Shown: positions 8,826-45,421 of the stretch, in pieces
Layout: the number at the start of each line of letters is the position of its first letter
Position numbering within the stretch: the first letter of the stretch is position 1
DNA from: Desulfurococcales archaeon
Lineage (GTDB): Archaea; Thermoproteota; Thermoprotei_A; Sulfolobales; NBVN01
Reading direction: 5' to 3'
Assembly: GCA_027064885.1 (NCBI GenBank)
Contig: JAMOOZ010000117.1
Span: 1 to 47,086 of the forward strand
Length of the DNA stretch: 47,086 nucleotides
Program-made: the position numbers and the translations under genes
Notes under the pieces: generated by a model
What the model was told of the DNA's origin: nothing
Database searches by the model: none
What the model saw: only the letters and a program-made list of their open reading frames with translations

Positions 8826-9482
8826 GTGCCCGAGCTGACGATAGTACACAGTATAGAGCTCGTAGACCATGTGGGTGTGCTGCCGACGTTCAACGAGTCT
8901 GTGGGGCTCAGCGACCAGCTGAAGATTATCCTGCCAAAGATAAGCCTGCCAGACGAGGTTGTTTACGCGTTGAAGAATAGCAAGGCTATGAACTACTGGC
9001 CGCTGATGCAGGCTATGAGCATTGAGGTGCAGAAGATAAGGAGGGTCAATGCTGGGGACTACGTGTTGTCCGAGGATATAAACCAGCCCAAGAAGGCTGT
9101 AGTGGCCGTCCTAGACTATGTTGACGAGGCTTTGAGATGGGAGGGCAGCAGTGTCAGGGATGATGTGAGTTCGTTGAGGTACGACGCTTACGGGGAGCTG
9201 TACATGGTGCCAGAGGCTAGGGCTGGCGAGATATATGATGTGGAGTGGCATAACGCGCTGGTGAGGGCTATCAAGAAGGTTGTCGACATTGCCCGCAAGT
9301 GGTTCCCGCTGAGGCTGGGGCCAGAGGCTAAGAGCCTGCTACGGGAGAAGAAGCCTGAAGACCTTATCGAGCCAGACGACCATAATAACAAGCGGGATGT
9401 GCTTGAGAACGCTGTCAACACGCTGATGCAGCTGGGAGGCTTCATAGTCGTGCTCATGAGGCAGCCTGGGGGCGGTAGGTGA
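8826..9482 (+). CDS. Probable virion/fibre-associated protein with three short repeats
   Basis: AGDYVLSEDIN, AGEIYDVEWHN, PEDLIEPDDHN; stop overlaps start of the 1100-aa gene. Confidence 0.6.
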   Translation: MPELTIVHSIELVDHVGVLPTFNESVGLSDQLKIILPKISLPDEVVYALKNSKAMNYWPLMQAMSIEVQKIRRVNAGDYVLSEDINQPKKAVVAVLDYVDEALRWEGSSVRDDVSSLRYDAYGELYMVPEARAGEIYDVEWHNALVRAIKKVVDIARKWFPLRLGPEAKSLLREKKPEDLIEPDDHNNKRDVLENAVNTLMQLGGFIVVLMRQPGGGR

Positions 9483-12400
9483 TGGCGTTCCTGCTTGGCG
9501 GCGGGCCGTTCATAGCAGCTAGGAGGCTCACAATACCACTGTACCTGACGCTGATAGGCGGGGACTGCTCTGCCCAGGGGCCCAGCCTGGTCTACGTCAA
9601 CCCCTACGCCTACGATTCTGGCTCGTGCGTGATTACGAGCGAGGACACCTTCTACAGTATCAAGATGTGGACTGTTACCATGGATGTTATAGCGTTGTCC
9701 CCCAGCGCCACGCTGACCATCAGGCTCCAGGTGGTAGACCCAGATACTGGCAGTGTGGTGCACGAGGAGTCCAAGACCATCTATGGTAGTGAGGTGCTGA
9801 ACCAGTGGGTGAAGGTTAAGGTTGAGATGAGCGTTGACGAGCCCATAGAGGCTGGCAGGCTTAGGCTGAGGGTTGAGTGGAGCGGCGGGCCTTTCCAGGC
9901 CAAGATACCGAACCTTGGCACGGTTACAGACCTGTGGTCTGGCTATAACCCAGTTGATGAGGCCTATGAGATTCCGCCGCTGTACGAGCACGTTAACGGC
10001 TATGTTGAGACTAGGAGGTACGCCTACCTGCTGCCTGGCAGGAACTACTATGTGCTGCCGTGCGAGATAACCGTGGACGACGAGAAGTATGCGCTTATAC
10101 GCGTGGACAACCCTCATGGTGTGCTTCTCGATGAGGCTGAGACCACCAGGCAGTGCGCCGCCAAGCAGGCTGTGGAGGTGTACAGTGAGCTTCCAGTAAA
10201 GCCGTACTATGCTCTTGAGAAGCCAGCCAAGCTTGCAAGGGTTGCCGAGGCCCTGCAAGCCCTATTGGCCACTGTTATAACGTTGTCGGCTATTCTGAGC
10301 AGGTTCGTGCTCGTGGTGCGGGAGAAGGTTAGCGCCAGGGTTAGGACTCCAGTCCTGCTGAGAGAGGTTGTTAACGCTGCAATAGACAGTGTTATGATGG
10401 TGTTTAAGGCTGGAAGGTTCCTAGCCGAGAAGGTGAGCTTGGCCGAGGCGTTTGCAAGGGTTGTCTACCGTAGCGCTGTGAGCAGGTTTACGCTGGTTGT
10501 AAGTGAGGCCGTGTCCGCTGTAAGGCGTAAGATTGCATCGCTGAGTGAGAGTGTAGCGTTCCAGCTCGCTTCGAGGCTGGTGGCCTACCTGCCAGTTGTG
10601 CTGGCTGAGACGCTGTCGCTTGTTGAGGCGTTTGCCAGGAAGGTGTATAGGCGGTTCACCAGCACGTTCACCCTCGTTGTCAGCGAGGCCGTGTCCGCCG
10701 TTAGACGGGTTATTGCAAGGGTTGAGGAGAGCCTGGCATTCCAGATGGCTTCGAGGCTTGCAAGGGCTTTCGCCGAGAAGCTGGCTGAGACCCTACAGCT
10801 GGCGGAGGCCTTCTCAAGGGTTGTCTACAGGTTCCTAACGAGCTCTTTCACGCTAGTGGTGTCTGAGACTGTAACGGCTGTGAGGAGGGTTATTGCAAGG
10901 GTTGAGGAGTCGGTTAGCGCCGTGCTACAGTCTACTATAGGTAGAGCATTCGGCAGGGTGCTGGCCGATACTGTGAGCTTGGCCGAGGCTGCCGCTGCTA
11001 GGGTGTACAGGTTCATAACCAGCGCTATGACTCTTGTGGTTAGCGAGGCTGTAACGGCTGTAAGGCGTGTCGCTGCAAGGCTGAGTGAGAGCCTGGCATT
11101 CCAGCTCGCCTCAACTGTGGCTAGGAGGCTGGCTAGGAGCCTCGCTGACGTGCTGTCGCTGGCCGACTATCTTGCCAGAAGGGTGTACAGGTTCCTATCG
11201 AGCAGCATGACGCTGGTAGTGTCCGAGACCGTGTCCGCCGTTAGGAGGGCTATCGCATCCCTATCAGAGTCCGTTGCGGCTAGCCTCGCGACAAGCATCT
11301 CCAAGCGTGTTAGGGCTGCGTTTGTGGAGGCTGCAAGCCTTGCAGACGCTATCGTTGCAAGGCTTAGGGCTGGGAGGCTCCTAGCTGAGACCATAGCGCT
11401 TGCTGAGGCGTTCGCTAGGAGGGTTTACAGGTTCCTAACTAGCACGTTCACGCTCGTTGTATCAGAGGCCGTGAGTACTGTTAGGAGGGTGCTGGCCAGG
11501 GTCAGCGAGACGGTTAGCGCCACGTTGTCGACCACCATTGGTAAGAGGGTGAGCACGCTCCTGGCCGAGGCCGTGTCTCTGGCTGACGCTATAGCGAGGA
11601 GGCTTAGGGCTAGCAGGGTGCTGGCCGAGGCTGCAAGCCTTGCAGACCAGCTCTATAGGAGGGTGAAGAGGGCTGCCACGAGCACTTTCGTGCTCGTTGT
11701 GAGCGAGACGGTTAGCGCTGTGCACAGGGTACTTGCGAGGGTAAGCGAGACACTATCCAGCACCCTAGCGGCCACGATAAGCAAGCTTGTGAGGAGGAGT
11801 GCAGCTGAATCCGCCAGCCTAACAGACGTGGTGCACGGAAGCTACCACGGGGACACGGCGCACAGCGATGTGGCGCACAGCGACAGCGAGTTCAGCGACA
11901 CTACACACTCGGACGCGGCTTTCTCGGACACAGCGTTCTCTAACACGCCATTCAGCGACACAGCCTTCTCAGACCAGGCGTTCAGCGATGTGGCATTCTC
12001 GAATGTGCCGTTCAGCAATGTGCCATTCAGCAATCAAGAGCACGCTGACATACATAGTGATAGGGCTTTCAGCGACCAGCCCCACAGCGACGGGCACGGG
12101 GACACAGCCCACAGCGATGGGGCTCACAGCAACGTCTCGTTCAGCAATGTGCCATTCAGCAACACACCATTCTCCAACTCGCCTTTCAGCAACGTGCCAT
12201 TCAGCGATGAGGCCCACTATGACAGCCACAGCGATGTGGCGCACAGCGATGAGAGCGGCATAGGCTTCAGCAACGTGTCTCACTCGGACTCGTGGTATGA
12301 TAGCTTCCCAATATTCGTAGACCACAGCGACCAGGCGCACAGCGACAGCCCTGGAGCACACTCTGATGTGAGCCACAGCGATACGCACACCAACATAGCG

Positions 12401-12781
12401 CACAGCGATGCCACACACAGCGATAGCAGCCACAGCGATACTAGACACAGCGATGTGAGCCATAGCGATAGTAGGCATAGCGATGTGCCGCACACCGACT
12501 ACCCGCACACAGACTGGTTCAGCAACGTATCACACTCTGATGTAACGCACGGTGATAGCTATGGAGACCAGCCTCACAGCGATGCAGCGTTCAGCGACCA
12601 GACCCACTCGGATGTCAGCCACAGCGACAAGGCTCACAGCGACCAGGCGCACAGCGACTCAACGCATAGTGATGTGAGCCATAGCGACCAGGCACACTCC
12701 GACGTTGCCCATAGCGATGCAGCGTTCTCGGACACGGCGCACAGCGATGTGGCGCATGCTGATAGGGCTGGCAGCTTCTAG
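9479..12781 (+). CDS. 1100-aa repetitive fibre-like protein with C-terminal (H/F)-S-(D/N) repeats; candidate radical SAM substrate
   Basis: N-terminal beta-rich domain, central 60/80-aa repeats, C-terminal 62 aromatic-X-D/N motifs; rSAM gene begins 39 nt downstream. Confidence 0.85.
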   Translation: MMAFLLGGGPFIAARRLTIPLYLTLIGGDCSAQGPSLVYVNPYAYDSGSCVITSEDTFYSIKMWTVTMDVIALSPSATLTIRLQVVDPDTGSVVHEESKTIYGSEVLNQWVKVKVEMSVDEPIEAGRLRLRVEWSGGPFQAKIPNLGTVTDLWSGYNPVDEAYEIPPLYEHVNGYVETRRYAYLLPGRNYYVLPCEITVDDEKYALIRVDNPHGVLLDEAETTRQCAAKQAVEVYSELPVKPYYALEKPAKLARVAEALQALLATVITLSAILSRFVLVVREKVSARVRTPVLLREVVNAAIDSVMMVFKAGRFLAEKVSLAEAFARVVYRSAVSRFTLVVSEAVSAVRRKIASLSESVAFQLASRLVAYLPVVLAETLSLVEAFARKVYRRFTSTFTLVVSEAVSAVRRVIARVEESLAFQMASRLARAFAEKLAETLQLAEAFSRVVYRFLTSSFTLVVSETVTAVRRVIARVEESVSAVLQSTIGRAFGRVLADTVSLAEAAAARVYRFITSAMTLVVSEAVTAVRRVAARLSESLAFQLASTVARRLARSLADVLSLADYLARRVYRFLSSSMTLVVSETVSAVRRAIASLSESVAASLATSISKRVRAAFVEAASLADAIVARLRAGRLLAETIALAEAFARRVYRFLTSTFTLVVSEAVSTVRRVLARVSETVSATLSTTIGKRVSTLLAEAVSLADAIARRLRASRVLAEAASLADQLYRRVKRAATSTFVLVVSETVSAVHRVLARVSETLSSTLAATISKLVRRSAAESASLTDVVHGSYHGDTAHSDVAHSDSEFSDTTHSDAAFSDTAFSNTPFSDTAFSDQAFSDVAFSNVPFSNVPFSNQEHADIHSDRAFSDQPHSDGHGDTAHSDGAHSNVSFSNVPFSNTPFSNSPFSNVPFSDEAHYDSHSDVAHSDESGIGFSNVSHSDSWYDSFPIFVDHSDQAHSDSPGAHSDVSHSDTHTNIAHSDATHSDSSHSDTRHSDVSHSDSRHSDVPHTDYPHTDWFSNVSHSDVTHGDSYGDQPHSDAAFSDQTHSDVSHSDKAHSDQAHSDSTHSDVSHSDQAHSDVAHSDAAFSDTAHSDVAHADRAGSF
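10304..11830 (+). repeat. Coding tandem repeats, 8 copies of (F/M)(T/V)LVV(S/R)E.V.A
   Basis: Copies near 10304, 10487, 10667, 10847, 11027, 11207, 11447, 11687 (spacings 183, 180 x4, 240 x2 nt). Confidence 0.9.
11846..12778 (+). repeat. Coding pentapeptide repeat array (H/F)S(D/N)xx, 62 units
   Basis: 15-nt period e.g. CACAGCGAT/TTCAGCAAT; units counted from the translation. Confidence 0.95.
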
Positions 12782-12820: not shown

Positions 12821-14029
12821 TTGAGGGTGGAGCGTTTGACTCTACTGGTTATGCCCACGTACAGCTGCCACCTTGCATGTGCCTACTGTTTCGAGAGCAC
12901 TATAGGGTGGAGGATGAAGGTCAAGCTTGACTATGACCTTGACAGGATGATGGAGGCTATAGCCAGGATTAACAGGTTGCAGCCCCACCAGGAGGCCGTT
13001 CTGCATGGCGGGGAGCCGCTGCTCATGCCACTACGAGACCTTGAGAGGCTGATAGCGTTCATCAGAAACCTGGGGCTCAGCGTTAGCGTGCAGAGCAGCT
13101 GCTCGATACTGAGCGAGGAGCACATCAAGCTGTTCAAAAGGTACAACGTGAGGGTCGGCTGTAGCGCTGACGGCCCGCCAGAGCTCAACGTGTTGAGGGG
13201 CTTCTGGCCTAGGGGGAAGCCGCTGGAGGAGCTTAACAGGAGGTACCGTGAGAAGGTGCAGAGGAACATTGAGATACTGGCTGAGGAGAAGCTGCTGGGT
13301 GGCGTGCTCACCATTGTGCATAGGGCTAACGCTGGCGACGTGGAGAAGCTGCGTAAGCTGGTGGGCTGGATCAACAAGTTGTATGAGCTTGGTAGCAGGT
13401 ATGGTAGGCTGAACCCTATGTACGCTGTTACCCCGTGGAGTAAGCCGTATGAGCTTAGCGTAGACGAGTTGTACAGGGCTTACGTGTGGATGTGGGAGAA
13501 CTTCTTCCAGGATAGGCCAGAGCTTGACTGGAGCCCGTACCACGACCTTGTGGCTGTGCTGCTGGGGCAGGAGAGGAGGGCTTTGTGCTGGTTTAACGGG
13601 TGCGGCTTTTACGACGCGCCAGTGTGGACTGTCGGGCCTAAGGGGGAGGTGTTGAGCTGCGATAGGACGCTGGGGGCTGGGATGTGGCTTAGGGCTAGGC
13701 CCCTGCCGAAGACCCAGCTTCTCGATAGGAAGATACGGGCTATAGCGCTGTGCCAGACGGAGCTTGCGGGGGACAGGTTCTGCCACCTCCACAAGGGTGG
13801 GTGCCCTGCCGAGGCCCTGGGCGGGGACTGGAGGAGGCCTAGCAGGTTCTGGAGGCTTTGGAGCAGGCTGCTAGAGTATTTTGAGCGTAGGCTGAAGGCT
13901 TTGGCTCCTTGGCTTAAGCTTGCTAGCGAGGTGCCCGACAGGCTGGAGTACATTGAGATGGTGAGTAGGGGGTGCGTGTGGAACCCGTTCACGGGCAGGT
14001 ACGACTGCCCAAAGGGCGGTAGGGGGTGA
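12821..14029 (+). CDS. Radical SAM enzyme with SPASM/twitch-like C-terminal domain (peptide/protein maturase type)
   Basis: CHLACAYC (CxxxCxxC), HGGEPLL, SADGP, C-terminal CWFNGC..GEVLSC..GGCP. Confidence 0.92.
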   Translation: MRVERLTLLVMPTYSCHLACAYCFESTIGWRMKVKLDYDLDRMMEAIARINRLQPHQEAVLHGGEPLLMPLRDLERLIAFIRNLGLSVSVQSSCSILSEEHIKLFKRYNVRVGCSADGPPELNVLRGFWPRGKPLEELNRRYREKVQRNIEILAEEKLLGGVLTIVHRANAGDVEKLRKLVGWINKLYELGSRYGRLNPMYAVTPWSKPYELSVDELYRAYVWMWENFFQDRPELDWSPYHDLVAVLLGQERRALCWFNGCGFYDAPVWTVGPKGEVLSCDRTLGAGMWLRARPLPKTQLLDRKIRAIALCQTELAGDRFCHLHKGGCPAEALGGDWRRPSRFWRLWSRLLEYFERRLKALAPWLKLASEVPDRLEYIEMVSRGCVWNPFTGRYDCPKGGRG

Positions 14030-14030
14030 T

Positions 14031-14867
14031 GTGGTCGTGAGGCATGTTAGGCTTCCACCTTTCAACGCGGTAGTGTTCAGGGGCGATGATGGGGGTAGGC
14101 TGGCTGAGAGGTGGGAGCCGCTGCTGGCCAGGATTGAGAGGGCGGTGTTCGAGGCCGAGTTCGGTATTGTAGGTGAGTTCGGGAGGCGCTGTAACACTGT
14201 GCTGCTGCCTCCTGGCGGTGGGCAGCAGACCCTTGAGCTGATACGGAGGTATGGGCTGCTGTTCTACCCTATAACGCAGGTTAGAGCGTACCAGGGCTAT
14301 GCTCACACCCATGAGAAGCCTAGGCATCCTGGGGAGGCGGCATTGTTCGGCGTGGCGTGCATCGAGATAGATGACGCGTTGAGGTTCGCCGAGGCCTACC
14401 AGAGGGGCGACCACTACACTCAAGGCAAGCTGCTGGGCTACCCAGAGTGCTGCATCAAGGCGTTCATCGAGGATTGGAACGCTGGCTACTACAGCCCCGT
14501 GATACAGGAGGTTAGGAGGACTCCTGGCTGCCACGACTACGAGTGCAGGATTGACCCGCTGCTCAACCCCACGCTACGCTATATCGGCGTGAAGGCGATA
14601 CCGTTCTGGCCCCACAACCTGGTGTGCAGGGAGGCGCACAGGTGGGCCGAGCACTTCATCGACGTGGTCAGGAGGATAGACAAGAAGGCCTACAAGGCGC
14701 TCCTGGAGCTGCTGGCCGAGCCCGTTGAGTTCAGCCAGGTTAACGGTATCATAGAGGTGAGGGTGGGGAGCCCGCCGTGGATGCTGATTATCAGCCAGGG
14801 CTATAGCGATGAGACGATACGGGTGCGCCTCATCCCAATGTACGACCCAGTTGAGGAGTATGGGTGA
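14031..14867 (+). CDS. Conserved-type archaeal protein with GxLLGYPxCC motif (DUF483-like)
   Basis: GKLLGYPECCIKAF and FWPHNLVC motifs; in operon with the rSAM gene. Confidence 0.6.
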   Translation: MVVRHVRLPPFNAVVFRGDDGGRLAERWEPLLARIERAVFEAEFGIVGEFGRRCNTVLLPPGGGQQTLELIRRYGLLFYPITQVRAYQGYAHTHEKPRHPGEAALFGVACIEIDDALRFAEAYQRGDHYTQGKLLGYPECCIKAFIEDWNAGYYSPVIQEVRRTPGCHDYECRIDPLLNPTLRYIGVKAIPFWPHNLVCREAHRWAEHFIDVVRRIDKKAYKALLELLAEPVEFSQVNGIIEVRVGSPPWMLIISQGYSDETIRVRLIPMYDPVEEYG

Positions 14868-14870
14868 TGT

Positions 14871-15647
14871 GTGGTGCCGCGTAGGGGTGTGCCAGAGCCC
14901 AAGGTGGGGGAGGTCGACGACCCCACGTTCAACAGGATATACGAGATTGTTGCCGAGAGGCTGCCCTACGACGCTAGGATACTACTGCTGAGCCACACGG
15001 GCTCCAGGGCCTACGGGTGGAGCTGGTACAACTTCGACTACGACATCCACGGCGTGTTCGCCTGTAAGGGGTGGTGGGACTGGGTTCACATAGGGGTTGA
15101 GGGCTTCGACATCAACATGTACGAGCTGGGCCACCTAATATACATGGATTTGTACTATAAGCATGGAGACACAATTATCAACATGGGCAACCCAATCTAT
15201 CTTGACCCAGAGTTTCCCTATGACGAGATGCTGGACTTGATTAGCACGGACTTCTGGCATGATAGCATGGTTGACTATCAGATTGCGAGGCTACAGACGT
15301 ACTTCAGCGCTAGGACGGCGCTGCACACGTATAGGGTTATGATTGTGCCGATGTACTTCATGAGGTTCGGTAGGTTCGAGCACAACATATTCAGGGCTAT
15401 GATTGAGCTCGGCCTAGACCTTGAGGGCCCCTATATCTGCCGTGAGGCGTACCTTGCACAGTACAAGATAACCAGCAGGAACCCCGTGCTCAGCGAGGAG
15501 GAGCGAGAGCTTGTGTGGAGGGAGATACGGATGCTCCGCGAGATGTTTGCCGAGTACAAGAAGAAGTACCATAAGCCTTGGAGTAGGGAGAAGTGGGAGC
15601 GGTTCATTGAGCTTGTGAGGCCGCTGTGGGCTGAGTGTGAGTACTAA
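14871..15647 (+). CDS. Pol-beta-superfamily nucleotidyltransferase
   Basis: GSRAYG...DYDIHGVF (GS..DxD) with a later D in FDINMYEL. Confidence 0.8.
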   Translation: MVPRRGVPEPKVGEVDDPTFNRIYEIVAERLPYDARILLLSHTGSRAYGWSWYNFDYDIHGVFACKGWWDWVHIGVEGFDINMYELGHLIYMDLYYKHGDTIINMGNPIYLDPEFPYDEMLDLISTDFWHDSMVDYQIARLQTYFSARTALHTYRVMIVPMYFMRFGRFEHNIFRAMIELGLDLEGPYICREAYLAQYKITSRNPVLSEEERELVWREIRMLREMFAEYKKKYHKPWSREKWERFIELVRPLWAECEY

Positions 15648-15679: not shown

Positions 15680-16450
15680 GTGGAGGGGCGGGCCGTGATA
15701 AGGCATTCCATCCGCGTGAAAGCGGACGTGTGGATAAACGGTAGGTTCGTCGGCGCCAACAGCCCGACAGAGACGCTTAAGGATGACATTGTAACGGAGA
15801 TGGGCACGTGCGGCAAGAAGGTAACCATTATCGATAAGATATGCCTCGTGGACGACCAGGGCACTGAGAGGGACTGCACTACAGACCTCAGCTACGAAGA
15901 CCACAGCCCTAACTATGTGCTTGTTAAGGGCAGCATACAAGCCACAGCCTCATACACTGTAGCCAAGATTAGGGCTTACAGTGTTGACAAGCTGTACTTC
16001 GAGACCGACTACAGTGTAGCGCTTAACCAGGGGGACGTGCTAGACGTAACGTACCAGATTAGCGCGACTGTAAGCTGCTCGCTTAGCGGCAGCGTTACAC
16101 AGCTGGAATGCGACCCTAGCGGGTACATCCAGAACCTTCTAAAAGCGTTCATAGGTGCTGATAGGGCTGTACTGTGCCTCAAGAGGGCCCTGCTGATGTA
16201 CTATAGTGAGACTGAGGGCAAGTATGTTAGCGGGCTGGCTATAACTCTGAGCATAAGCTATGACACGGCTCAAAACAAGGTTACGGGGAGCGGGAGCGGC
16301 ACCAGCACGCTAGACTTTGAGGCGGAGTACCTAGAGTACGATAATGGTGCTAATCCGCCAGTACCGTTGATAGAGCAGCATTTCAGCCAGACACTGCCAA
16401 TATATAGGGACACCGTGGTCAATGTTAGCTACGAGTTTACTGTTCAGTAA
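15680..16450 (+). CDS. Beta-rich probable virion protein, two related halves resembling 8260..8787
   Basis: Halves end VALNQGDVLDVTYQI and LPIYRDTVVNVSYEF, cf. VTLYSGDQLYIQWKV. Confidence 0.55.
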   Translation: MEGRAVIRHSIRVKADVWINGRFVGANSPTETLKDDIVTEMGTCGKKVTIIDKICLVDDQGTERDCTTDLSYEDHSPNYVLVKGSIQATASYTVAKIRAYSVDKLYFETDYSVALNQGDVLDVTYQISATVSCSLSGSVTQLECDPSGYIQNLLKAFIGADRAVLCLKRALLMYYSETEGKYVSGLAITLSISYDTAQNKVTGSGSGTSTLDFEAEYLEYDNGANPPVPLIEQHFSQTLPIYRDTVVNVSYEFTVQ

Positions 16451-28518: not shown

Positions 28519-28836
28519 ATGCCCAGCGCACCATCCGCCCCACCAGGACAGAGCAAGATTGTCCAGATACCACCCATCACAGTTATGGTGGACGACTGCC
28601 TAGCCCACATTCTCGAAGTCGCCCAGCTCGACTTCCCCTGGGGCACCGAGTACGCAGTCTCAGTCATGGTGGAATGCAAGGGTATACGCAGCAGGGTCTT
28701 CAACCTCTCTGTGAGGAACGAGAAGGAGCTAAAGGCCAAGCTGATAGCCGAGGTTACAAAGTTCAAGCTAATGCGCCTCGTACTCGGCGACGAGACGACA
28801 AGAGACGTGGTAGGGGGTGTCCCACTTGTCAGATGA
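28519..28836 (+). CDS. Hypothetical protein
   Basis: 105-aa ORF after a TTTTTAAA box. Confidence 0.75.
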   Translation: MPSAPSAPPGQSKIVQIPPITVMVDDCLAHILEVAQLDFPWGTEYAVSVMVECKGIRSRVFNLSVRNEKELKAKLIAEVTKFKLMRLVLGDETTRDVVGGVPLVR

Positions 28837-31800
28837 CCCGTACTTCCACTACACGCGAGATGACGTGGAGTGGCTGGCCGACCAGCTCGCAGACGTGCTG
28901 GTAGCCGAGACTAGGCAGCAGCGCCAGCAGTACACTGTGATAACCATAGATATGGTAGAGCTCCTAGACCTCAAGGCCATAGCGAGCGGCGTCTTCGGCA
29001 TAACAGACCCTATAGGCCAGCTCAAAGACTGGCTCAAAAAGATACTCGAAGGCTTCGTCCAAACCATAGTCGATAAGATAGGCTCACTCATATCTGGCGT
29101 CTTCAACGAGGTAATCAAACCCATACTAGACCGTATATCCTCTGCCATAAGCGCGCTCGCAGACACCGTAAACAAGGTAGTCATACAGCCGATTAAGGAT
29201 GTGCTCAACTGGATCGCTGAGAACATACCAAAGCTCAAGGACACGGTTACAGGGCTCATAGACAGTATCAAGAACGGCCTGAACACTCTGAGCAACACAC
29301 TGGTAAACATTACAAGCCAGATACTAAGCCTGGTCAACAGTATATCGAGCGCCGTAGGCGACGTCATATCTGAGATAACCTCGAAGATACAGGAGATAGT
29401 GAAGTCGGTCTCCGAGGGTATACAGAGCGCTGTAAGCGCAGTCCAGGACGCCCTATCAGCCGTGCAGAACGCGATTTCTGGCATTGTAGACCAGATATCT
29501 AGCACCCTCTCAAACCTGGCAAGCAGGATAGGCGACGTCATAAGCAACGTGGTCTCAACCATAACATCCCTTGTTGAGAAGATAGGCGGCCAGCTAAGCG
29601 ACATAGTGTCCTCGATAGCTGGCAAGCTAAGCGACCTACTGGGCAGGGCTGCTGGTACAATACAAGACCTGCTGTCAAGGGTTGGCTCGGCAGTCAGCAA
29701 GATAGGCGACGCAATATCATCAGTCATCAACGCAATATCATCCAGGCTCCAGAACCTAGCCAACTCTGTAGCCCAGGCCATATCCAAGCTGCCAAGCCTC
29801 ATATCAGAAGCCTTGGGTAGGCTCAGCAGCCTAGCCTCAAAGGTGGCCAGCAGCATATCGGGGCTCCTACACAAGGCCGCCAGCACAATACAAGACATAG
29901 TTTCCAGGATAGGCTCAGCCGTGGGCAAGATAATCGGCGAGATAACATCGGCGCTCCGCAGGCTGGGCGAGAAGCTGGGCGAGCTGGCGAGAGGGGTAAT
30001 AGACGTTCTGACAAAGGTGCCAGGCATAATATCTAACATAATATCAAAGATATCCAGCGGCCTCCAAGACATTGCTGGCAGGATATCCAAAGCCCTCAGC
30101 GGGCTAATCGAGGGCGCTGGCAAGGCCATAGAGGGCATCATAGGCAGGATATCAAAGATTGTAGACAAGATAGTCGGCACCATCACCTCAGCTCTTGAGC
30201 GTGCAGGCCAGACAATACGCAAAATGGTGGAGAACGCCGTAGCGGCCATAGAGAAGCTGCCAGACACTATAGGCAGGATAGTCTCAAGGATAGGCGAGGG
30301 CCTATCCAGCCTGCTACAGCGCGCCAGCGACCTCATAAGCAAGATTATAGGCGGCCTACAGCGCGGCATAGGCCAGATACTGTCTGGCGTGAGGAAGATA
30401 GTGGATAGCATAGTCTCAGCAGCCAAGAGCGGCATAGACAAGCTGGTAGACCTCCTCGGCAAGGCCAGGGACGTGGTAGGCAAGATAGTAGACAAGGTCA
30501 AGAGCCTCCCAGACGTCATAGAGGAGGCCCTCGGCAAGGTCAAGGACTTCCTCAGCGACGTGGCTGACAAGTTCAAGGACGTCCTAGAGACTCTTGGCAA
30601 GATGCTGAGCCCAGCCCACGTAGCAGTAGTGGTCTCAGACCTCCTCCGCAGAGCCGCCCCAGACGTCTACAACGAGCTCAGAAGCACCCTGGCAAGAATT
30701 AGGAACCCACTAGACTTCATAGCCAACTTCCCCAAGCTGATGTTCCTATCAATGGTCGGCCTAGCAAAGGTAGTATGGTACCTGATGCCAAAGGAGGTCA
30801 AGGACTTCTTCAACAACGTCGCGAACGCGGTTAAAACCGTTGGAGAGCACTTGATGGGCTTCGTAAACGCGATAATGAAGTTCCCAGAATGGTTCCCCAA
30901 CTGGTTCAAGCAGCACATAGCAGAGCCCATAGTAGGGGCCCTCAAGCGGATAGGAGAGTGGATATGGGAGCACCTACCAGACTTCGTCAAGGACTTCTTC
31001 AGCAAGGCCGTAGACTTCTTCAAGAGCATACCAGACTACATCAAGGAGGCGGCGGACAAGATAAGGGAGGCTGGCGAGAAGATAGTAGAAGCCGCCAAGG
31101 CTGTTGGAGAAGGCCTCAAGAAGTTCTTCGAAGACCCACTCGGCACCCTAAAGAGCGTGCTTGAGTGGCTGTGGGAGCACGCCCTCAAGCCACTCGGAGA
31201 ACACATCTACGAGGGGCTTAAAGCGCTAGGAGAGTGGATATGGGAGCACCTACCAGACGCGGTCAAGGAGTTCCTTGAGAAGGCCAGGGACGCACTGGTA
31301 GCGCTGAAGGACGCTATAGTGGGCTTCTTCAAAGACCCCGTTGGCACGCTTAAGGGCGTACTACAGTGGCTCTGGGACAACGCGTTCAAGCCTCTAGGCG
31401 AGCGCATATACGAAGGCCTCAAGGGCCTGGGCCAGTGGATATGGGAGCACCTGCCCGAGCCAGTCAGAGAATTCCTTGAAAAGGCTAGGGACGCACTGAT
31501 AACCATCGGCGAGAAGGTCAAGTCTGGCGTAGAGTGGCTCATAGAGCACCTGCCAGCAGTCAAGGACGCACTTATAGCTGTTAAGGATGCAATAGTAGCG
31601 TTCTTCAAAGACCCTGTAGGCACGCTGAAGAGTCTGCTCGAATGGCTGTGGGACAACGTGTTCAAGCCTCTAGGCGAGCGAATCTACGAGGGGTTGAAGT
31701 CCCTCGGAGGATGGATATGGGAGCATCTGCCAGACCCTGTTAGGGAGGCACTGCTCAAGGTCAGAGACTTCTTCGGCTGGCTCTACGAGCAGCTGGTAGA

Positions 31801-34800
31801 ATTCTTCAAAGACCCCAAGGGCAAGATACTGGACTTTCTCAGGTGGCTCTGGGACAAGCTGCTCCTAGCCAAGGACTGGATTGTAGACCACGTAGTTAAG
31901 CCGTTAATAGACATTCTAAAGACAATCTGGGATTACGTCAAGAAGGCTGTGATATGGATTGCAGAACACGTATTCGATGCCCTAGTAGAGTTTGGAAGGT
32001 TCGTGCTCACTGGAGCCTACAAGATAATCACTGGCCTAGCCGACATACTGTGGAATATAGGTAAGACCCTTGCTGGGGCATTCCTCAACTTTGCTGCCAG
32101 GGTTGAAGGCTTTATCGCTGAGCATCTGCCAGGAGGCATCTACAAGCGGCACCTAGAGGTTTTGGAGGAGGCTCTGGGCAAAGATGCAGCTAAAGCAGTA
32201 GCCGCAGTTACTGCTCCATTTGCAGTACCATTATCGCTTGTCGGCGGATTCTACAAGATTATCTATGAGAAGGCTAAGGATATGATGCCAGTAATAATGA
32301 GAGACCCCGTAGGCACAATCTACGGTATAGCCAATCTTGCAATATTCGGTGCCGTGATGGGCATCATTCTAGAGAGTGCCATCAGCAGCCTTGCCAGAAT
32401 ATTCAAGGGTATAGAGGTTAGTCTCTCCGCTCTGCTCAGGCCGCTTGGTATAGGCACGAAAGGCGAGGGTAAAGTCAAGATAGACGTTGGAGAGGCCCTT
32501 GAAAAGCTTTCAAAGAGTATTGGCAAGATAATGCCAGACGTTGCGAGGTACCTCATAATAGGCCATATGATATGGTGGGCCGAGCCGACAAGGGCCATCA
32601 CAAGGTACTGGCTCACCAACTACATAACCATAGAGCTTCCGCCTATGGAGCAGACCCTCCGCAGCCTACGCCGCCACCTGGCGACCCCAGAGGCGCAGAC
32701 GTACTACAGGATATACGTAGACCAGCTGAGGATGGGCGGTATATCACAGCAGTTCATAGACTACCTCTACCCGCTGCCAGACAAGCTCCTATCGATATAC
32801 CAGGAGGTTGCAGCCAAGTACGACGCCAACCTCAAGGCTCTAATCATAACCGACAGGTTCGGCCAGCCACGCGTCTTCCCAGCAAGCCTAGTGGCTGAGA
32901 TACCGACACCAAGCGAGCTAGCTCACATGATGATACGAGACATCATACTAAACCCCAGGGACTTCGCCGCCGTAATGAGCATGCACGGCTTCACGCCAGA
33001 CGTAGCATTCATGTTCTACCTGCTGCACTTCAGGTACCCCAGCCCAGAGAAGCTCGCAGAGTTCTTCTGGCGCGGCGTGGCTGGCGAGCTGTGGAACCCC
33101 GACGAGTCCTACGACAAGGACATAGTGGCCACCTTCTTCAAGAAGGGAGAGGTGCCGAAGCCAAAGGCGCCTAAGAAGTTCAACTTCGACGCAAAGTCGC
33201 TGTTCGAGATGATGAAGCAGTACATGAAGTGGCACGACTACGCCAGGATACCGTGGCACAAGGGCTGGCCCACAGACAACGCCATAATTATGGAGCTGAT
33301 AGCCGACATCCCAGGCAAGATAGACCTGCGCTGGATGACCAGGTGGGGCCTCTTCGACTACTGGGGCGCGTGGGGCTACGGTATCAAGAGCAGTATAGAG
33401 GAGATAACCACTGGCCTACTCAAAGAGGGCCAGACAACCTCAGCAGCAGCAATTGTGGAGAAATACCTGAACTCGCTGAAGAGCGGCAAGATAGAGTTCG
33501 ACGTCCGCCAGTTCGCCAGGACTCTCCAGGCAACAGGCCTGCACCCCTACTGGGTGCCGTGGATAAGCATAGCCGAGACAATCAACGCACTATCAGAGGA
33601 GCGTACACTGCTCAGAACTGGCTTCATAAACCTGTTCAGGGAGGGCCTGTGGACGCTAGACCAGCTGAACGTGCTGCTCTCTGGCTTCTTCACAGTAGTA
33701 TTCAAGACTGGCTACTTCGACCCCAACACTATGGACTGGAAGGAGGTTAACGTAGAGTTCCCAGTAGCATTCCTGCCAGCAGAGTCGAAGCTGCTGGAGC
33801 TAAGGGCTGTCATGGACAAGGCGCTTGACATCTACCGTGAGGCCTACAGGTACCTGATACGCTCAGCCCTCTACTACACTGTAACGGTGGAGGAGGCGGA
33901 GGAGATACTCAGGGACATAGTTGGAGCCATAAATGCCAACTTCTTCGTCAGCGAGATACGCAAGATAACAGGCAAGAGCCTAGGCCTAGAGCTCGACAAG
34001 GGCTACTGGGCGGCCTGGAGGAGGTACGTGGAGCTACTCCAGGACGTTGAGGCCAGGCTTAGGACACGCTACTACGCACGCTACATCATCTGGAGCGTCC
34101 TCTGGGGCCTACGCTGGGGCTACACTACAATCAGCGAGGCCGAGAAGTGGGTAGAACAGATGGTAAACGTTATGCACGAGCACAAGTACGTCGAAGACAT
34201 GATAAGGATGTCCGTAGACTTCATGATCCAGAGGTTCTACAAGGAGATATCCGTGAGGGCCATAGTCAACAGGCTGAGGAGCAGGAGGATAACGGTTGAC
34301 GAGGCCCTGGAGGAGTTCAAGAAGCTCGGATTCGACGAGAAAACCGCCAGGCTCTACATTGACGCGAACGTGATATGGTACACTCCGAGCATAACCACCT
34401 ATGCCAGCATGCTTGAGGTGGTGCCAGAGGCCCTCGACACTGTGTTGAACGTCGTGGCCAGGTTCAACCTGCCAGAGGATGAGCGGCTCTACTGGATGCT
34501 CTACCTTGCAAGGCAGCCAGTACGCGACGAGCTAACCCTAGTGCGCACGAGGATATACCAGCTCCTAGCCCTGGGCATGAGCCCAGAGGAGCTTACAGCC
34601 CTACTATCAGAGTACGCTGTAGGCTACGTCTACAAGGACGGTAAGCTTGAGCTTGTAGCAGGCCCCAAGGCAAAGGAGGCCCTAGCAGTCTACGACAAGG
34701 CCGTCGAGGTCTTCCAGGCGTTCGGCATATCCCAGCACGAGTGGGTGCTCTACAACCTGATAGCAAGAATGGAGAACCTCAAAGACATAATGAAGGCTGC

Positions 34801-36172
34801 TGAGAAGGAGAGGATACCCAGCCCAACAACCATGGCAAGTCTGGCAGAGTACCTTGTCCTCCCAGAAGACCTGGTGAGGAAGACCCTTGAGGAGTACCAC
34901 GTTGCGCCAGAGTGGCTCCCATACTGGCTGGAGTACATCCGTGTTAAGCCCCTCAAGAGCGATTACAAGAGCCTGCTAAGCGTCTACATACGCGCCCTAC
35001 GCTACAAGGCCGTCTCAGAGGACGAGTTCAAGAAGTTCCTGAAGGAGCTGTCCGAGTGGGGCTTCACGCCCAAGGAGGTGGAGCTGGTAAGCAGGCGTGC
35101 AGCACTTGAGGAGGCCATCGTTGAGGCTAGGGAGGCAGCCAGACTCTACATACCAACACCGACAATGCTAGCAACCCTCGCAGAGTACATGGTGCTCCCC
35201 AGCGACCTGATAGCGAAGGCTCTGGCTGCCAGGCATGTGCCAGAGGAGTGGACTAAGATATGGCTAGAATACATCAGGGTAAGGCCAGTCAAGAGCGACT
35301 ACAAGACGCTCCTGACAGCCTACATACGAGCTCTACGCTACGGTGTGGTCAGCAGGAACGACGTTGAAGCATTCATAAAGGAGCTTAGCCAGTGGGGCTT
35401 CACGCCCAAGGAGATTGAGATTATAAGGCGCAGGGTAGAGCTCGAAGAGGCCATAGCAGCCGCGAGGGAGTACATACCAACACCATCCATGCTGGCGACA
35501 ATGGCCGAGTACGTGCCAGCGGTTAGGAGGTACGCCCTTCAGGTCCTTGAGAAGCGTAGGGTGCCGAGGGAGTGGTGGCCAGTCTGGCTGGAGTACATCC
35601 ATGTTAGGCCGCTTGCCAGCGAGGTGCGCGAGGTCGTAAGGGACATACGCCAGCTCTACGAGTACTTCGCAATCAAGCTCGACGACCTCAAGCGCCTGCT
35701 CAAGCGGTTCGTACAGTACGGCCTGGAGGACGAGGAGATAGCCCTACTAGTCTACGGCAGCCAGCTTCGCGCCGCGCTGAGGGCATACAGGGAGCTGGTA
35801 GGAACACCGAGACAGCTCGTAACTATGGCAGAGTACAGCCCCAAGGCCAGGAGGCTAGCCCTAGCACAGGTCTACAAGATGATTGACGCGCTGCCAGTAG
35901 ACCAGCCTACCAAGGAGTTCCTCAAGAAGATGTGGGAGGAGTACATCCGCGTGCGCCCAGTCTACGACGAGGTGCGGAGGTACATCACCGAGCTAATAAG
36001 CGACTATGCCGAGGGCGTGATAGGCGACGACGAGCTCAAGCAGGAGCTTGAAGCGCTCAAGGACTGGGGCCTGGACGACTACGAGATACAGTTCTACATG
36101 TGGCTGGCGCAGCGGAGGCGGGTGAGGTACGTCTACCGTGAGCTTAGGAGGCAGCAGTACTTCGGGCTATGA
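28817..36172 (+). CDS. Giant 2451-aa helical repeat protein, probable terminal-structure/virion protein
   Basis: Amphipathic 11/18-residue-type repeats, Trp-rich FFKDPxGTLK..WIWEHLP repeats, C-terminal IPTPxMLA..W..YI.VRP repeats. Confidence 0.8.
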   Translation: MSHLSDDPYFHYTRDDVEWLADQLADVLVAETRQQRQQYTVITIDMVELLDLKAIASGVFGITDPIGQLKDWLKKILEGFVQTIVDKIGSLISGVFNEVIKPILDRISSAISALADTVNKVVIQPIKDVLNWIAENIPKLKDTVTGLIDSIKNGLNTLSNTLVNITSQILSLVNSISSAVGDVISEITSKIQEIVKSVSEGIQSAVSAVQDALSAVQNAISGIVDQISSTLSNLASRIGDVISNVVSTITSLVEKIGGQLSDIVSSIAGKLSDLLGRAAGTIQDLLSRVGSAVSKIGDAISSVINAISSRLQNLANSVAQAISKLPSLISEALGRLSSLASKVASSISGLLHKAASTIQDIVSRIGSAVGKIIGEITSALRRLGEKLGELARGVIDVLTKVPGIISNIISKISSGLQDIAGRISKALSGLIEGAGKAIEGIIGRISKIVDKIVGTITSALERAGQTIRKMVENAVAAIEKLPDTIGRIVSRIGEGLSSLLQRASDLISKIIGGLQRGIGQILSGVRKIVDSIVSAAKSGIDKLVDLLGKARDVVGKIVDKVKSLPDVIEEALGKVKDFLSDVADKFKDVLETLGKMLSPAHVAVVVSDLLRRAAPDVYNELRSTLARIRNPLDFIANFPKLMFLSMVGLAKVVWYLMPKEVKDFFNNVANAVKTVGEHLMGFVNAIMKFPEWFPNWFKQHIAEPIVGALKRIGEWIWEHLPDFVKDFFSKAVDFFKSIPDYIKEAADKIREAGEKIVEAAKAVGEGLKKFFEDPLGTLKSVLEWLWEHALKPLGEHIYEGLKALGEWIWEHLPDAVKEFLEKARDALVALKDAIVGFFKDPVGTLKGVLQWLWDNAFKPLGERIYEGLKGLGQWIWEHLPEPVREFLEKARDALITIGEKVKSGVEWLIEHLPAVKDALIAVKDAIVAFFKDPVGTLKSLLEWLWDNVFKPLGERIYEGLKSLGGWIWEHLPDPVREALLKVRDFFGWLYEQLVEFFKDPKGKILDFLRWLWDKLLLAKDWIVDHVVKPLIDILKTIWDYVKKAVIWIAEHVFDALVEFGRFVLTGAYKIITGLADILWNIGKTLAGAFLNFAARVEGFIAEHLPGGIYKRHLEVLEEALGKDAAKAVAAVTAPFAVPLSLVGGFYKIIYEKAKDMMPVIMRDPVGTIYGIANLAIFGAVMGIILESAISSLARIFKGIEVSLSALLRPLGIGTKGEGKVKIDVGEALEKLSKSIGKIMPDVARYLIIGHMIWWAEPTRAITRYWLTNYITIELPPMEQTLRSLRRHLATPEAQTYYRIYVDQLRMGGISQQFIDYLYPLPDKLLSIYQEVAAKYDANLKALIITDRFGQPRVFPASLVAEIPTPSELAHMMIRDIILNPRDFAAVMSMHGFTPDVAFMFYLLHFRYPSPEKLAEFFWRGVAGELWNPDESYDKDIVATFFKKGEVPKPKAPKKFNFDAKSLFEMMKQYMKWHDYARIPWHKGWPTDNAIIMELIADIPGKIDLRWMTRWGLFDYWGAWGYGIKSSIEEITTGLLKEGQTTSAAAIVEKYLNSLKSGKIEFDVRQFARTLQATGLHPYWVPWISIAETINALSEERTLLRTGFINLFREGLWTLDQLNVLLSGFFTVVFKTGYFDPNTMDWKEVNVEFPVAFLPAESKLLELRAVMDKALDIYREAYRYLIRSALYYTVTVEEAEEILRDIVGAINANFFVSEIRKITGKSLGLELDKGYWAAWRRYVELLQDVEARLRTRYYARYIIWSVLWGLRWGYTTISEAEKWVEQMVNVMHEHKYVEDMIRMSVDFMIQRFYKEISVRAIVNRLRSRRITVDEALEEFKKLGFDEKTARLYIDANVIWYTPSITTYASMLEVVPEALDTVLNVVARFNLPEDERLYWMLYLARQPVRDELTLVRTRIYQLLALGMSPEELTALLSEYAVGYVYKDGKLELVAGPKAKEALAVYDKAVEVFQAFGISQHEWVLYNLIARMENLKDIMKAAEKERIPSPTTMASLAEYLVLPEDLVRKTLEEYHVAPEWLPYWLEYIRVKPLKSDYKSLLSVYIRALRYKAVSEDEFKKFLKELSEWGFTPKEVELVSRRAALEEAIVEAREAARLYIPTPTMLATLAEYMVLPSDLIAKALAARHVPEEWTKIWLEYIRVRPVKSDYKTLLTAYIRALRYGVVSRNDVEAFIKELSQWGFTPKEIEIIRRRVELEEAIAAAREYIPTPSMLATMAEYVPAVRRYALQVLEKRRVPREWWPVWLEYIHVRPLASEVREVVRDIRQLYEYFAIKLDDLKRLLKRFVQYGLEDEEIALLVYGSQLRAALRAYRELVGTPRQLVTMAEYSPKARRLALAQVYKMIDALPVDQPTKEFLKKMWEEYIRVRPVYDEVRRYITELISDYAEGVIGDDELKQELEALKDWGLDDYEIQFYMWLAQRRRVRYVYRELRRQQYFGL

Positions 36173-45251: not shown

Positions 45252-45421
45252 GTTTTTAACCTCGCACGGCCACGACGGCCCCTTTTAAGGCCTAGTTCTG
45301 CTCTAAGCTTAGCACTACAACAGTTAGAGTGCCGCCAGCCGCTCCACTTTTATCCAAGCGGTATTACACCTTCTGTACACGGCCCAACGGCCAACGTACA
45401 CATGGTCGGAGGTGTGTATGC

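What the first reader, a model, noticed from the sequence alone, without database searches (positions are those of the whole stretch)
11846..12778. Repeat array has mirror-symmetric spacing, implying one long antiparallel hairpin with an aromatic tip
Seen: numbering the 62 units, the default length is 5 aa. The irregular units are 14, 17, 26 (4 aa), 28 (8 aa), 30 (4), 31 (7), 32 (3), 34 (7), and 36, 45, 48 (4 aa). Every irregular gap k has a partner at 62-k (14/48, 17/45, 26/36, 28/34, 30/32), centred on WYDSFPIFVD at 12293-12322. Simple tandem duplication would not give this. Inference: the chain folds back on itself in register, like the needle of the T4 gp37 long tail fibre, with the aromatic loop as the receptor-binding tip.
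Basis: partly seen in the sequence, partly recalled or inferred. Interest (0 to 1): 0.9.

Follow-up and report, generated by a model that had tools for sequence, protein, structure and literature searches.

The report
Mirror-symmetric fibre repeat with radical-SAM partner
The end of a large virus tail-fibre-like protein is a run of 62 short His/Phe-x-Asp/Asn repeats whose irregularities are mirror images about a central aromatic loop, as expected if the chain folds back on itself, and the gene is always followed by an enzyme pair that probably cross-links those repeats chemically.

Summary
All 11 are mirrored (exact p = 2.9e-6). Aromatic anchors k and 63-k sum to residue 1883 for 28 consecutive pairs.

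The mirror recurs in homologues. In 50 of 177 arrays it passes a strict test at p<=0.01, with lineage-specific patterns and concordant changes in both arms. The closest homologue is mirrored only near the tip.

An in-register antiparallel fold-back is the best reading, but it is not shown. The AlphaFold2 monomer was unusable (pLDDT 49). Trimer state, metal binding and receptor binding remain inference.

Every unit is an aromatic-x-Asp/Asn motif, the substrate motif of cyclophane-forming radical SAM maturases. The next two genes are a radical SAM/SPASM enzyme and a DUF483 protein. The same triad stands in Thermus phage Cumys, after its baseplate genes. It also stands in 24 of 25 diverse arrays fetched from public contigs. 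15 of 17 of these enzymes carry HxD repeats at their own C-terminus.

Most likely this is a fold-back virus fibre needle stapled post-translationally. No paper found by my searches describes that.

The parts
9479..12781 (+). 1100-aa fibre-like protein (GTG start, overlaps the stop of the upstream ORF 8826-9482 by 4 nt)
   Evidence: No Pfam or PHROG family above threshold.
10301..11833 (+). Shaft region: 8 repeats of 60 or 80 aa (LVV[SR]E motif at residues 278, 339, 399, 459, 519, 579, 659, 739)
11846..12292 (+). N-arm: units 1-30 (residues 790-938), rich in F-S-N/D units
12293..12322 (+). Centre of symmetry / proposed turn: WYDSFPIFVD (residues 939-948). Conserved as WFADNFPSFID in the closest homologue P0001.
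12323..12778 (+). C-arm: units 33-62 (residues 949-1100), mostly H-S-D units. The protein ends 8 aa after the last anchor.
12821..14029 (+). Radical SAM/SPASM enzyme (CX3CX2C at C16/C20/C23, plus conserved C-terminal CX2CX5CX3C cysteines). No N-terminal recognition domain.
14031..14867 (+). DUF483 protein with a conserved GYPxCC...HxPCxxxC cysteine/histidine set
28817..36172 (+). Context: 2451-aa tail length tape measure protein, which marks the contig as a tailed virus or provirus
   Evidence: PHROG tape-measure families, E down to 2.7e-59

Best explanation
Residues 790-1100 are the distal domain of a fibre protein of a tailed virus. The host is probably archaeal, because a TFIIB-like gene lies on the contig. 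The domain consists of two equal arms of about 30 units each, of the form aromatic(H/F/W/Y)-x-(D/N)-x-x. The arms run antiparallel and in register (residue i opposite residue 1883-i) about a turn at WYDSFPIFVD. The C-terminus therefore returns to the base of the shaft. Any one-residue deletion or loop in one arm must be matched at the same height in the other arm. That constraint explains the mirror, and why homologues change both arms together. The array is also the likely substrate of the two enzymes encoded directly downstream, a radical SAM/SPASM enzyme and a DUF483 protein. The most likely chemistry is a three-residue cyclophane staple (aromatic ring to C-beta of the D/N) in each unit, giving a thin, rigid, heat-stable needle. 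Shown: the mirror, its recurrence, the conserved gene triad, and the enzyme class. Inferred: the fold-back, the oligomeric state, that the enzyme acts on the array, the chemistry, and receptor binding at the tip.
For: Mirror in the window. Family: 206 proteins at E<=1e-3 and 377 representatives. Of 177 distinct arrays with at least 30 units, 50 pass the strict mirror test with at most 10 of 1000 shuffles reaching the observed score, and 32 have none. Their centres lie at relative position 0.47-0.58. A unique longest unit of at least 8 aa lies in the central tenth in 69 of 124 arrays, where about 12 are expected. In 147 of 164 homologues the array ends within 12 aa of the C-terminus. Triad: Thermus phage Cumys has its array protein Cumys_13 after the baseplate and tail collar fibre genes, then rSAM, then DUF483. 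Its array is also mirrored block by block. In two public scans, 24 of 25 arrays with at least 18 units and unit diversity >=0.5 have an rSAM homologue in the locus, and 17 also have DUF483. Only 1 of 13 low-diversity simple repeats has an rSAM. The order array, rSAM, DUF483 on one strand is seen. The array genes follow tape measure, fibre J-like or host-specificity genes. Enzyme: the rSAM has invariant CX3CX2C and SPASM cysteines. Its nearest NCBIfam models are cyclophane-forming peptide maturases (AmcB, DynA, YhhB, DarE, GrrM/OscB, FxsB, XyeB), anSME and HxsB. 15 of 17 rSAM homologues carry at least 3 HxD motifs in their last 60 aa. All 62 units fit the aromatic-X2-X3 motif defined for triceptides, including the His motifs HTK, HAA and HNR (PMC11499958, part 1 of 3 read). 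H is replaced only by F, W or Y, and 10 of the 12 N residues at X3 follow F.
Against: No structure supports the fold: the AlphaFold2 monomer has pLDDT 49.1 and pTM 0.16. 127 of 177 arrays do not pass the strict mirror test. The closest homologue, P0001, is mirrored only in the 11 tip-proximal units, has unpartnered 10-aa and 4-aa units in its N-arm, and has a second 34-unit array after a proline-rich linker. All rSAM matches to characterised maturases are far below their cut-offs (best 66.6 bits against 425), so the chemistry is not established. The window's own rSAM lacks the HxD tail. The substrate would be a 1100-aa protein with no leader, unlike known triceptide precursors. The authors who noticed the Cumys module proposed DNA modification. 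The unit-diversity threshold was chosen after seeing the data. A residue covariation test between the arms gave no signal.
Confidence: 0.55

Rival explanations
1. [quoted passage not shown] The mirror has no structural meaning.
For: Weak matches to Pentapeptide_4 (E 4.3e-7, 30.3 bits), Pentapeptide_3 and the SV2 luminal domain over the F-rich residues 796-852. SV2C and a pentapeptide protein are the only PDB sequence matches, at E 0.06-0.5. 115 Rheinheimera phage 'pentapeptide' genes match 7% of the query.
Against: All Pfam scores are below the gathering cut-offs (38 and 27 bits). A parallel helix with four units per coil gives no reason for a mirror at p = 2.9e-6 that recurs with different patterns in 50 homologues. 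It also gives no reason for a central longest loop. Cumys_13 has many 3-, 4- and 6-residue units. AlphaFold2 gave no confident model. From my own experience, not from a call, such helices usually fold confidently.
Confidence: 0.1
2. The mirror reflects antiparallel pairing between different chains (residue i of one chain opposite residue 1883-i of another), giving an extended rod with a dyad at WYDSFPIFVD rather than an intrachain hairpin.
For: Any antiparallel homo-oligomer would impose the same mirror on the sequence, so fit this reading equally well.
Against: The centre holds the least regular units, with Pro/Gly-rich loops, and inserts of up to about 25 aa in homologues. That fits a turn better than a tightly paired dyad. 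The array is C-terminal to attachment or shaft domains and ends a median of 5 aa after the last anchor. An inter-chain rod would put the two virion-attachment ends about twice as far apart, at opposite poles.
Confidence: 0.1
3. The rSAM/DUF483 pair does not touch the fibre. It modifies DNA or another target, and its position after the array gene is only gene order. The H/D ladder instead binds metal ions, as the gp37 histidines bind iron.
For: The authors of the Cumys genome paper suggested a DNA modification role. They noted rSAM/DUF483 homologues next to deazapurine genes in cyanobacteria (passages read). T4 gp37 holds seven irons on histidines along its needle (PMC6957217, passages read).
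Against: 24 of 25 diverse arrays have the rSAM in the locus, in the order array, rSAM, DUF483. 15 of 17 rSAMs carry HxD repeats of their own. The nearest characterised relatives are peptide or protein maturases. 20 of 62 units are F-x-D/N, which cannot bind metal, yet they keep an aromatic ring.
Confidence: 0.12
4. The region is a disordered, low-complexity His/Asp/Ser-rich tail, and the mirror in this one protein is a coincidence.
For: The composition is 22.5% S, 16.1% D and 12.9% H. AlphaFold2 gave no secondary structure.
Against: The exact p is 2.9e-6. The mirror recurs in 50 of 177 arrays, where about 2 would be expected at p<=0.01. The spacing is conserved despite sequence divergence.
Confidence: 0.03

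Closest known systems
Needle/tip domain of the bacteriophage T4 long tail fibre protein gp37
   Same: It is a distal fibre domain rich in regularly spaced histidines. The window's mirror implies the same kind of chain reversal at a distal tip. gp37 is a trimer with seven irons held by histidines along the needle (PMC6957217, passages). The up-and-back topology of gp37 is recalled, not read here.
   Different: No sequence similarity to any solved chain. The motif is H-x-D in a 5-residue period, not H-x-H. A third of the units carry F instead of H. The arms are about 150 residues each. The gene comes with a dedicated rSAM/SPASM and DUF483 pair. Trimer state and metal binding were not tested.
Triceptide (three-residue cyclophane) RiPP systems: precursor plus rSAM/SPASM 3-CyFE maturase (e.g. 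HtkA/HtkB, HaaB, YhhB)
   Same: The substrate motif is aromatic-X2-X3, and His and Phe are both accepted (PMC11499958). An rSAM/SPASM enzyme is encoded next to the substrate. The nearest NCBIfam models are these maturases.
   Different: The putative substrate is a 1100-aa virion protein with 62 motifs and no leader. The rSAM starts at its CX3CX2C motif with no N-terminal recognition domain. Scores are far below the family cut-offs. A DUF483 partner, often fused to a methyltransferase-like domain, is present. No product has been observed.
Pentapeptide repeat proteins (Rfr fold; Pfam Pentapeptide families)
   Same: A five-residue period with an aromatic or hydrophobic residue every fifth position, and sub-threshold Pfam matches.
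   Different: Below gathering thresholds. The consensus is H/F-S-D/N-x-x rather than A-(D/N)-L-x-x. There are many 3-, 4-, 7- and 8-residue units, placed as mirror pairs, which a parallel four-unit coil does not explain.
The 'rSAM module' of Thermus phages Cumys and phiMa (bioRxiv 10.1101/2024.08.14.607894)
   Same: The same triad: a protein of unknown function, an rSAM and a DUF483 protein. Cumys_13 is a homologue of the window's array (32% identity, E 1e-5).
   Different: In the passages I read, that paper treats the module as a possible DNA modification system. Those passages do not mention the repeat array, its mirror, or a fibre substrate.
His-Xaa-Ser (Hxs) system: HxsA repeat peptide with rSAM maturases HxsB/HxsC
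   Same: A repeated His-x-small motif paired with an rSAM. HxsB is among the NCBIfam matches (E 6.7e-8, N-terminal part only).
   Different: 31.7 bits against a cut-off of 370. The motif is H-x-D. The context is viral and structural. What I know of HxsA itself is recalled, not checked here.

Membership tests
T4 gp37-type fibre needle | Sequence homology to the gp37 C-terminal domain | tested here: not met
   phmmer and a profile search of all PDB chains found no fibre protein. The best hits were SV2C at E 0.06 and enteropeptidase at E 0.2.
T4 gp37-type fibre needle | His-x-His iron-binding motifs | tested here: not met
   All 62 units are [HFWY]-x-[DN]. H-x-D makes up 38 of them.
T4 gp37-type fibre needle | Chain runs to a distal tip and returns, with the arms at equal height | tested here: inconclusive
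   The mirror spacing, the central longest loop and the C-terminus at the array end imply it. There is no structure.
T4 gp37-type fibre needle | Homotrimer with metal ions on the axis | not testable with these tools
   No usable model. It needs EM, crystallography or metal analysis.
Pentapeptide repeat protein | Reaches the Pfam gathering score of a Pentapeptide family | tested here: not met
   Pentapeptide_4 scored 30.3 bits against 38, and Pentapeptide_3 scored 22 against 27.
Pentapeptide repeat protein | At least eight contiguous five-residue repeats | tested here: met
   Units 1-13 and 49-61 are uninterrupted 5-mers.
Pentapeptide repeat protein | Right-handed quadrilateral beta-helix fold | tested here: inconclusive
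   AlphaFold2 gave pLDDT 49 and no secondary structure.
Triceptide / 3-CyFE system | Aromatic-X2-X3 motifs in the substrate | tested here: met
   62 of 62 units. The motif definition is from PMC11499958.
Triceptide / 3-CyFE system | Adjacent rSAM enzyme with a SPASM cysteine motif | tested here: met
   The gene lies 40 nt downstream. Invariant C16/C20/C23 and CX2CX5CX3C in 17 homologues.
Triceptide / 3-CyFE system | Maturase scores as a member of a characterised cyclophane synthase family | tested here: not met
   Best match AmcB, 66.6 bits against a cut-off of 425. All others are also below cut-off.
Triceptide / 3-CyFE system | Short leader-core precursor peptide | tested here: not met
   The putative substrate is the C-terminal third of a 1100-aa protein.
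Triceptide / 3-CyFE system | Aromatic-to-C-beta cross-link (-2 Da per motif) | not testable with these tools
   Needs mass spectrometry or NMR.
Cumys/phiMa-type rSAM module | Array protein, rSAM and DUF483 genes in a row on one strand | tested here: met
   Window genes at 9479-12781, 12821-14029 and 14031-14867. Cumys genes 13, 12 and 11. Viral loci.

The most novel reading that the evidence does not exclude
A widespread class of virus tail-fibre tips is built as a long two-armed fold-back needle. Each five-residue rung (H/F-x-D/N) is covalently stapled by a dedicated viral radical SAM/SPASM enzyme with a DUF483 helper. That would make dozens of RiPP-type cyclophane cross-links in one virion structural protein. 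It would be the first enzyme-installed carbon-carbon cross-linking of a phage receptor-binding fibre, and by far the most heavily modified radical SAM protein substrate known.
Probability: 0.35. Interest if true: 0.9.

Novelty: new variant of a known kind. Interest (0 to 1): 0.8.

Why it matters
If the arms pair as inferred, this is a fibre-needle design that can be recognised from sequence alone, by its mirror spacing. At least 377 protein clusters carry it, and no Pfam or PHROG family covers it. If the neighbouring radical SAM enzyme staples the repeats, virion proteins join the substrates of RiPP-type maturases. That would explain the unexplained 'rSAM module' of Thermus phages. It would also give DUF483 a first functional context. 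And it would offer a natural scaffold of tens of identical cross-link sites for enzyme and materials work. A cultured, harmless system (Thermus phage Cumys on T. thermophilus HB8) makes the idea directly testable.

Tried and rejected
Structure prediction. The AlphaFold2 monomer of residues 785-1100, with a 30-row alignment, gave pLDDT 49.1 and no secondary structure, so it is unusable. Complex prediction with three copies of the same domain returned 'no answer' (score 0.00, controls not run). It counts neither for nor against trimerisation.

The AlphaFold2 model of the DUF483 protein is confident (pLDDT 89.3). Foldseek against the PDB gave 0 matches at E<=0.001, so no function could be read from the fold.

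The ESM Atlas search returned only unnamed clusters, scores 0.83-0.89, some viral, and holds no structure for this protein.

Residue covariation between mirrored units. The corrected pass had only 80 usable units and showed no signal, so it is underpowered.

Using the longest unit as the tip is noisy. |C-arm minus N-arm| was <=10 aa in 95 of 184 arrays. The overall Pearson r was negative, because misplaced tips make the two arm lengths trade off.

phmmer could not separate family arrays from simple H-x-D satellites: 65 of 151 pattern-bearing ORFs matched. I therefore used a unit-diversity cut chosen after seeing the data.

The genome-contig scan returned mostly unrelated low-complexity repeats (HGDGG, RRYDD, HDDEG). 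Only one locus, L174, had a genuine short array with rSAM and DUF483.

The search for related loci failed with alignment A1, which had no conserved stretch. With the window's DUF483 protein alone it found nothing.

Literature. Searches found no paper linking radical SAM or cyclophane chemistry to a phage fibre. PMC13434306 mentions cyclophane only in a reference on an HExxH domain. Supplements were not consulted.

Full report
THE OBSERVATION. The finding lies in the C-terminal 311 residues of a 1100-aa ORF (9479..12781, + strand). I parsed residues 790-1100 with a single rule: aromatic H/F/W/Y, any residue, then D or N. This gave exactly 62 anchors. WYDSFPIFVD is at 12293-12322.

All 11 irregular units are mirrored about unit 31. 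None of 100,000 random placements reached this. Of 100,000 shuffles of the order of the observed gaps, 310 did. The exact values are 2.9e-6 and 60/18,900.

In residue terms, anchors k and 63-k add up to 1883 for 28 consecutive pairs spanning 300 residues. The sum drifts to 1884-1885 only in the three pairs next to the centre. The DNA shows only short, diverged 15/30-nt tandem stretches.

IS IT A PROPERTY OF A FAMILY? The domain has many relatives. A word-seeded search found 206 proteins at E<=1e-3 among 7,180 candidates. An exhaustive search of 50%-identity cluster representatives found 377, of which 90 were at E<=1e-10. Most come from contigs of phage size, and one is named as an uncultured Caudovirales protein.

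I parsed every array of at least 30 units in these proteins, and in the loci fetched later, giving 177 distinct arrays. For each I asked whether one mirror constant matches more anchors than shuffles of that array's own unit order.
- 50 arrays pass, with at most 10 of 1000 shuffles reaching the observed score. In 32 of them no shuffle did. About 2 passes are expected by chance.
- Among those that pass, the mirror centre lies at relative position 0.47-0.58, median 0.50.
- 127 arrays do not pass.

Where an array has a unique longest unit of at least 8 aa, it lies in the central tenth in 69 of 124 arrays, against about 12 expected. In 147 of 164 homologues the protein ends within 12 aa of the last anchor, with a median of 5 aa.

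The irregularity patterns differ between lineages but change in both arms together. P0019 has 4-aa units at outward positions 4, 6, 14, 27 and 28 of both arms. P0009 has them at positions 7, 25 and 26 of both arms. P0063 carries an 8-aa unit at the same height in both arms, and P0044 lacks it in both.

Exceptions must be stated. The closest homologue, P0001 (48% identity in the array, same N-terminal domain), keeps the tip-proximal pattern 4-5-8-5-4 | 7 | 3-5-7-5-4 and the tip motif (WFADNFPSFID). But its N-arm has an unpartnered 10-aa unit and an unpartnered 4-aa unit. Its C-side is longer. A second 34-unit array follows a proline-rich linker. I cannot tell whether that is biology or a repeat misassembly on a 5-kb contig.

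WHAT FOLD? A mirror of spacing along one chain is what in-register antiparallel pairing demands, and I know of no other cause. It cannot come from inverted DNA duplication, because the reverse complement would not encode the motif.

The intrachain fold-back is favoured over an inter-chain antiparallel rod. The centre carries the least regular, Pro/Gly-rich and most variable loops. The chain also ends exactly where the C-arm ends.

A parallel pentapeptide-repeat helix is the obvious textbook alternative. Pfam does give weak Pentapeptide_4, Pentapeptide_3 and SV2 matches on the F-rich stretch. All are below their gathering scores, and that fold does not explain the mirror.

I could not obtain a structure. 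The AlphaFold2 monomer was unusable (pLDDT 49.1). Sequence and profile searches of the PDB found nothing. So the fold-back is a strong inference, not a result. Trimer state, metal binding and the receptor-binding role of the aromatic loop remain conjecture. Resemblance to T4 gp37 is functional at most. gp37 holds seven irons on histidines along its needle (PMC6957217, passages). But the motif here is H-x-D, a third of the units have F in place of H, and there is no sequence similarity.

The only cultured-phage hit is Thermus phage Cumys. There the homologue, Cumys_13, follows the baseplate and tail collar fibre genes. It is followed directly by an 'rSAM protein' and a 'DUF483-domain protein'. 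The window has the same order:
- the array gene at 9479-12781;
- a radical SAM gene at 12821-14029 (Pfam Radical_SAM, E 4.6e-14);
- a DUF483 gene at 14031-14867 (E 1.3e-8).

The Cumys_13 array is also mirrored block by block.

Most matches are out-of-frame or are simple satellites. Of 38 ORFs with arrays of at least 18 units:
- 25 have diverse units, and 24 of those 25 have an rSAM homologue in the locus;
- 17 of the 25 also have DUF483, and several of the others are cut by the locus end;
- 13 are near-perfect simple repeats, and only 1 of these has an rSAM (the threshold was chosen after seeing the data).

The order is array, rSAM, DUF483 on one strand. The array gene follows tape measure, fibre-J-like or host-specificity genes.

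THE ENZYMES. Seventeen rSAM homologues share the CX3CX2C cluster motif at the very N-terminus, with no recognition domain before it. They also share a C-terminal CX2CX5CX3C SPASM motif. The nearest NCBIfam models, all far below their cut-offs, are cyclophane-forming peptide maturases (AmcB, DynA, YhhB, DarE, GrrM/OscB, FxsB, XyeB), the anaerobic sulfatase maturase, and HxsB of the His-Xaa-Ser system.

Every one of the 62 units fits the aromatic-X2-X3 motif on which such enzymes make three-residue cyclophanes, including His-containing HTK, HAA and HNR (PMC11499958, part 1 of 3 read). Histidine is replaced only by F, W or Y. Ten of the twelve N residues at X3 follow F. That fits a need for an aromatic ring better than a need for a metal ligand.

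15 of 17 rSAM homologues carry three or more HxD motifs in their own last 60 residues, though the window's own enzyme has none.

DUF483 has an invariant CC pair, further conserved Cys and His residues, and in long forms a methyltransferase-like DLGCGxG domain. Its model is confident but has no neighbour in the PDB.

The authors who noted the Cumys 'rSAM module' guessed at DNA modification (bioRxiv 10.1101/2024.08.14.607894, passages). My searches found no paper connecting radical SAM chemistry with a phage fibre.

CONTEXT OF THE WINDOW. The window is a whole 47,086-nt contig of a 2.0-Mb binned genome, and it holds that genome's only copy of the array. It encodes:
- a 2451-aa tape measure protein (PHROG E down to 2.7e-59);
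- a TFIIB-like protein and a Memo-like protein;
- two GT4 glycosyltransferases;
- a PAPS-reductase-like protein.

It is therefore most likely a tailed virus or provirus of an archaeon. The N-terminal two-thirds of the fibre protein hold eight 60/80-aa repeats, probably a shaft.

VERDICT. The fold-back reading is well supported by inference but is unproven. The gp37 analogy holds for topology only.

The best overall explanation is a two-armed fold-back needle whose rungs are substrates of a co-encoded radical SAM/SPASM and DUF483 pair, most likely for cyclophane stapling. I put about 0.7 on in-register antiparallel pairing of the arms, about 0.65 on the enzyme acting on the array, and about 0.4 on the specific cyclophane chemistry.

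Noticed in passing
window 10301-11833: The N-terminal two-thirds of the same protein hold eight repeats of 60 or 80 aa (multiples of a roughly 20-aa LAExxSLAEAFARxVYR-like sub-repeat). This is probably the fibre shaft. The closest homologue, P0001, shares it.
   Followed up: partly
window 28817-36172: A 2451-aa ORF matches many PHROG tail length tape measure families (E down to 2.7e-59), and phrog_7334 at its C-terminus. It marks the contig as a tailed virus or provirus, yet it lies 16 kb downstream of the fibre gene.
   Followed up: partly
window 45329-46426: A TFIIB-repeat protein (Pfam E 8.8e-7) is on the contig, which suggests an archaeal host or virus. Most other ORFs have no Pfam or PHROG match.
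   Followed up: no
loci L012, L017, L034, L041, L047, L048, L077, L089, L092, L097, L106, L108, L111 and others (rSAM genes): 15 of 17 rSAM homologues end in their own PHGDxPHGDHTD-like HxD repeats, so they may be pseudo-substrates or self-modified. The window's rSAM lacks this tail.
   Followed up: partly
window 14031-14867 and DUF483 genes of L010, L017, L034, L041, L047, L077, L092, L097, L108, L112: DUF483 folds confidently (pLDDT 89.3) but has no PDB fold neighbour. It has conserved GYPxCC and HxPCxxxC motifs. Ten of 14 homologues are fused to a class I methyltransferase-like C-terminal domain, which hints at a second modification.
   Followed up: partly
P0001 residues 1054-1256: The closest homologue has a 30-aa proline-rich linker, followed by a second 34-unit array. 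That array begins like its own C-arm (HSDMMHSDT...). This is either a duplicated arm or a repeat misassembly.
   Followed up: partly
window 11846-12778: There is covariation within units. N at the third position goes with F at the first (10 of 20 F units against 2 of 40 H units). FSN units usually end in P (FSNVP).
   Followed up: partly
L003 (IMG/VR) and L049: These loci hold very long arrays of 128 and 93 units in ORFs of 795 and 660 aa, both next to an rSAM gene. Needle length appears highly variable.
   Followed up: no
L174 (Actinobacteria MAG contig VAWP01000041.1): A small 163-aa ORF has a lipoprotein-like N-terminus and an 18-unit HxD array, next to rSAM and DUF483 homologues. The module may also exist outside fibre proteins.
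   Followed up: no
window 14871-15647 and 15680-16450: Two further same-strand ORFs (258 and 256 aa) directly follow the DUF483 gene. They have no match in Pfam, NCBIfam or PHROGs. They may belong to the same operon.
   Followed up: no
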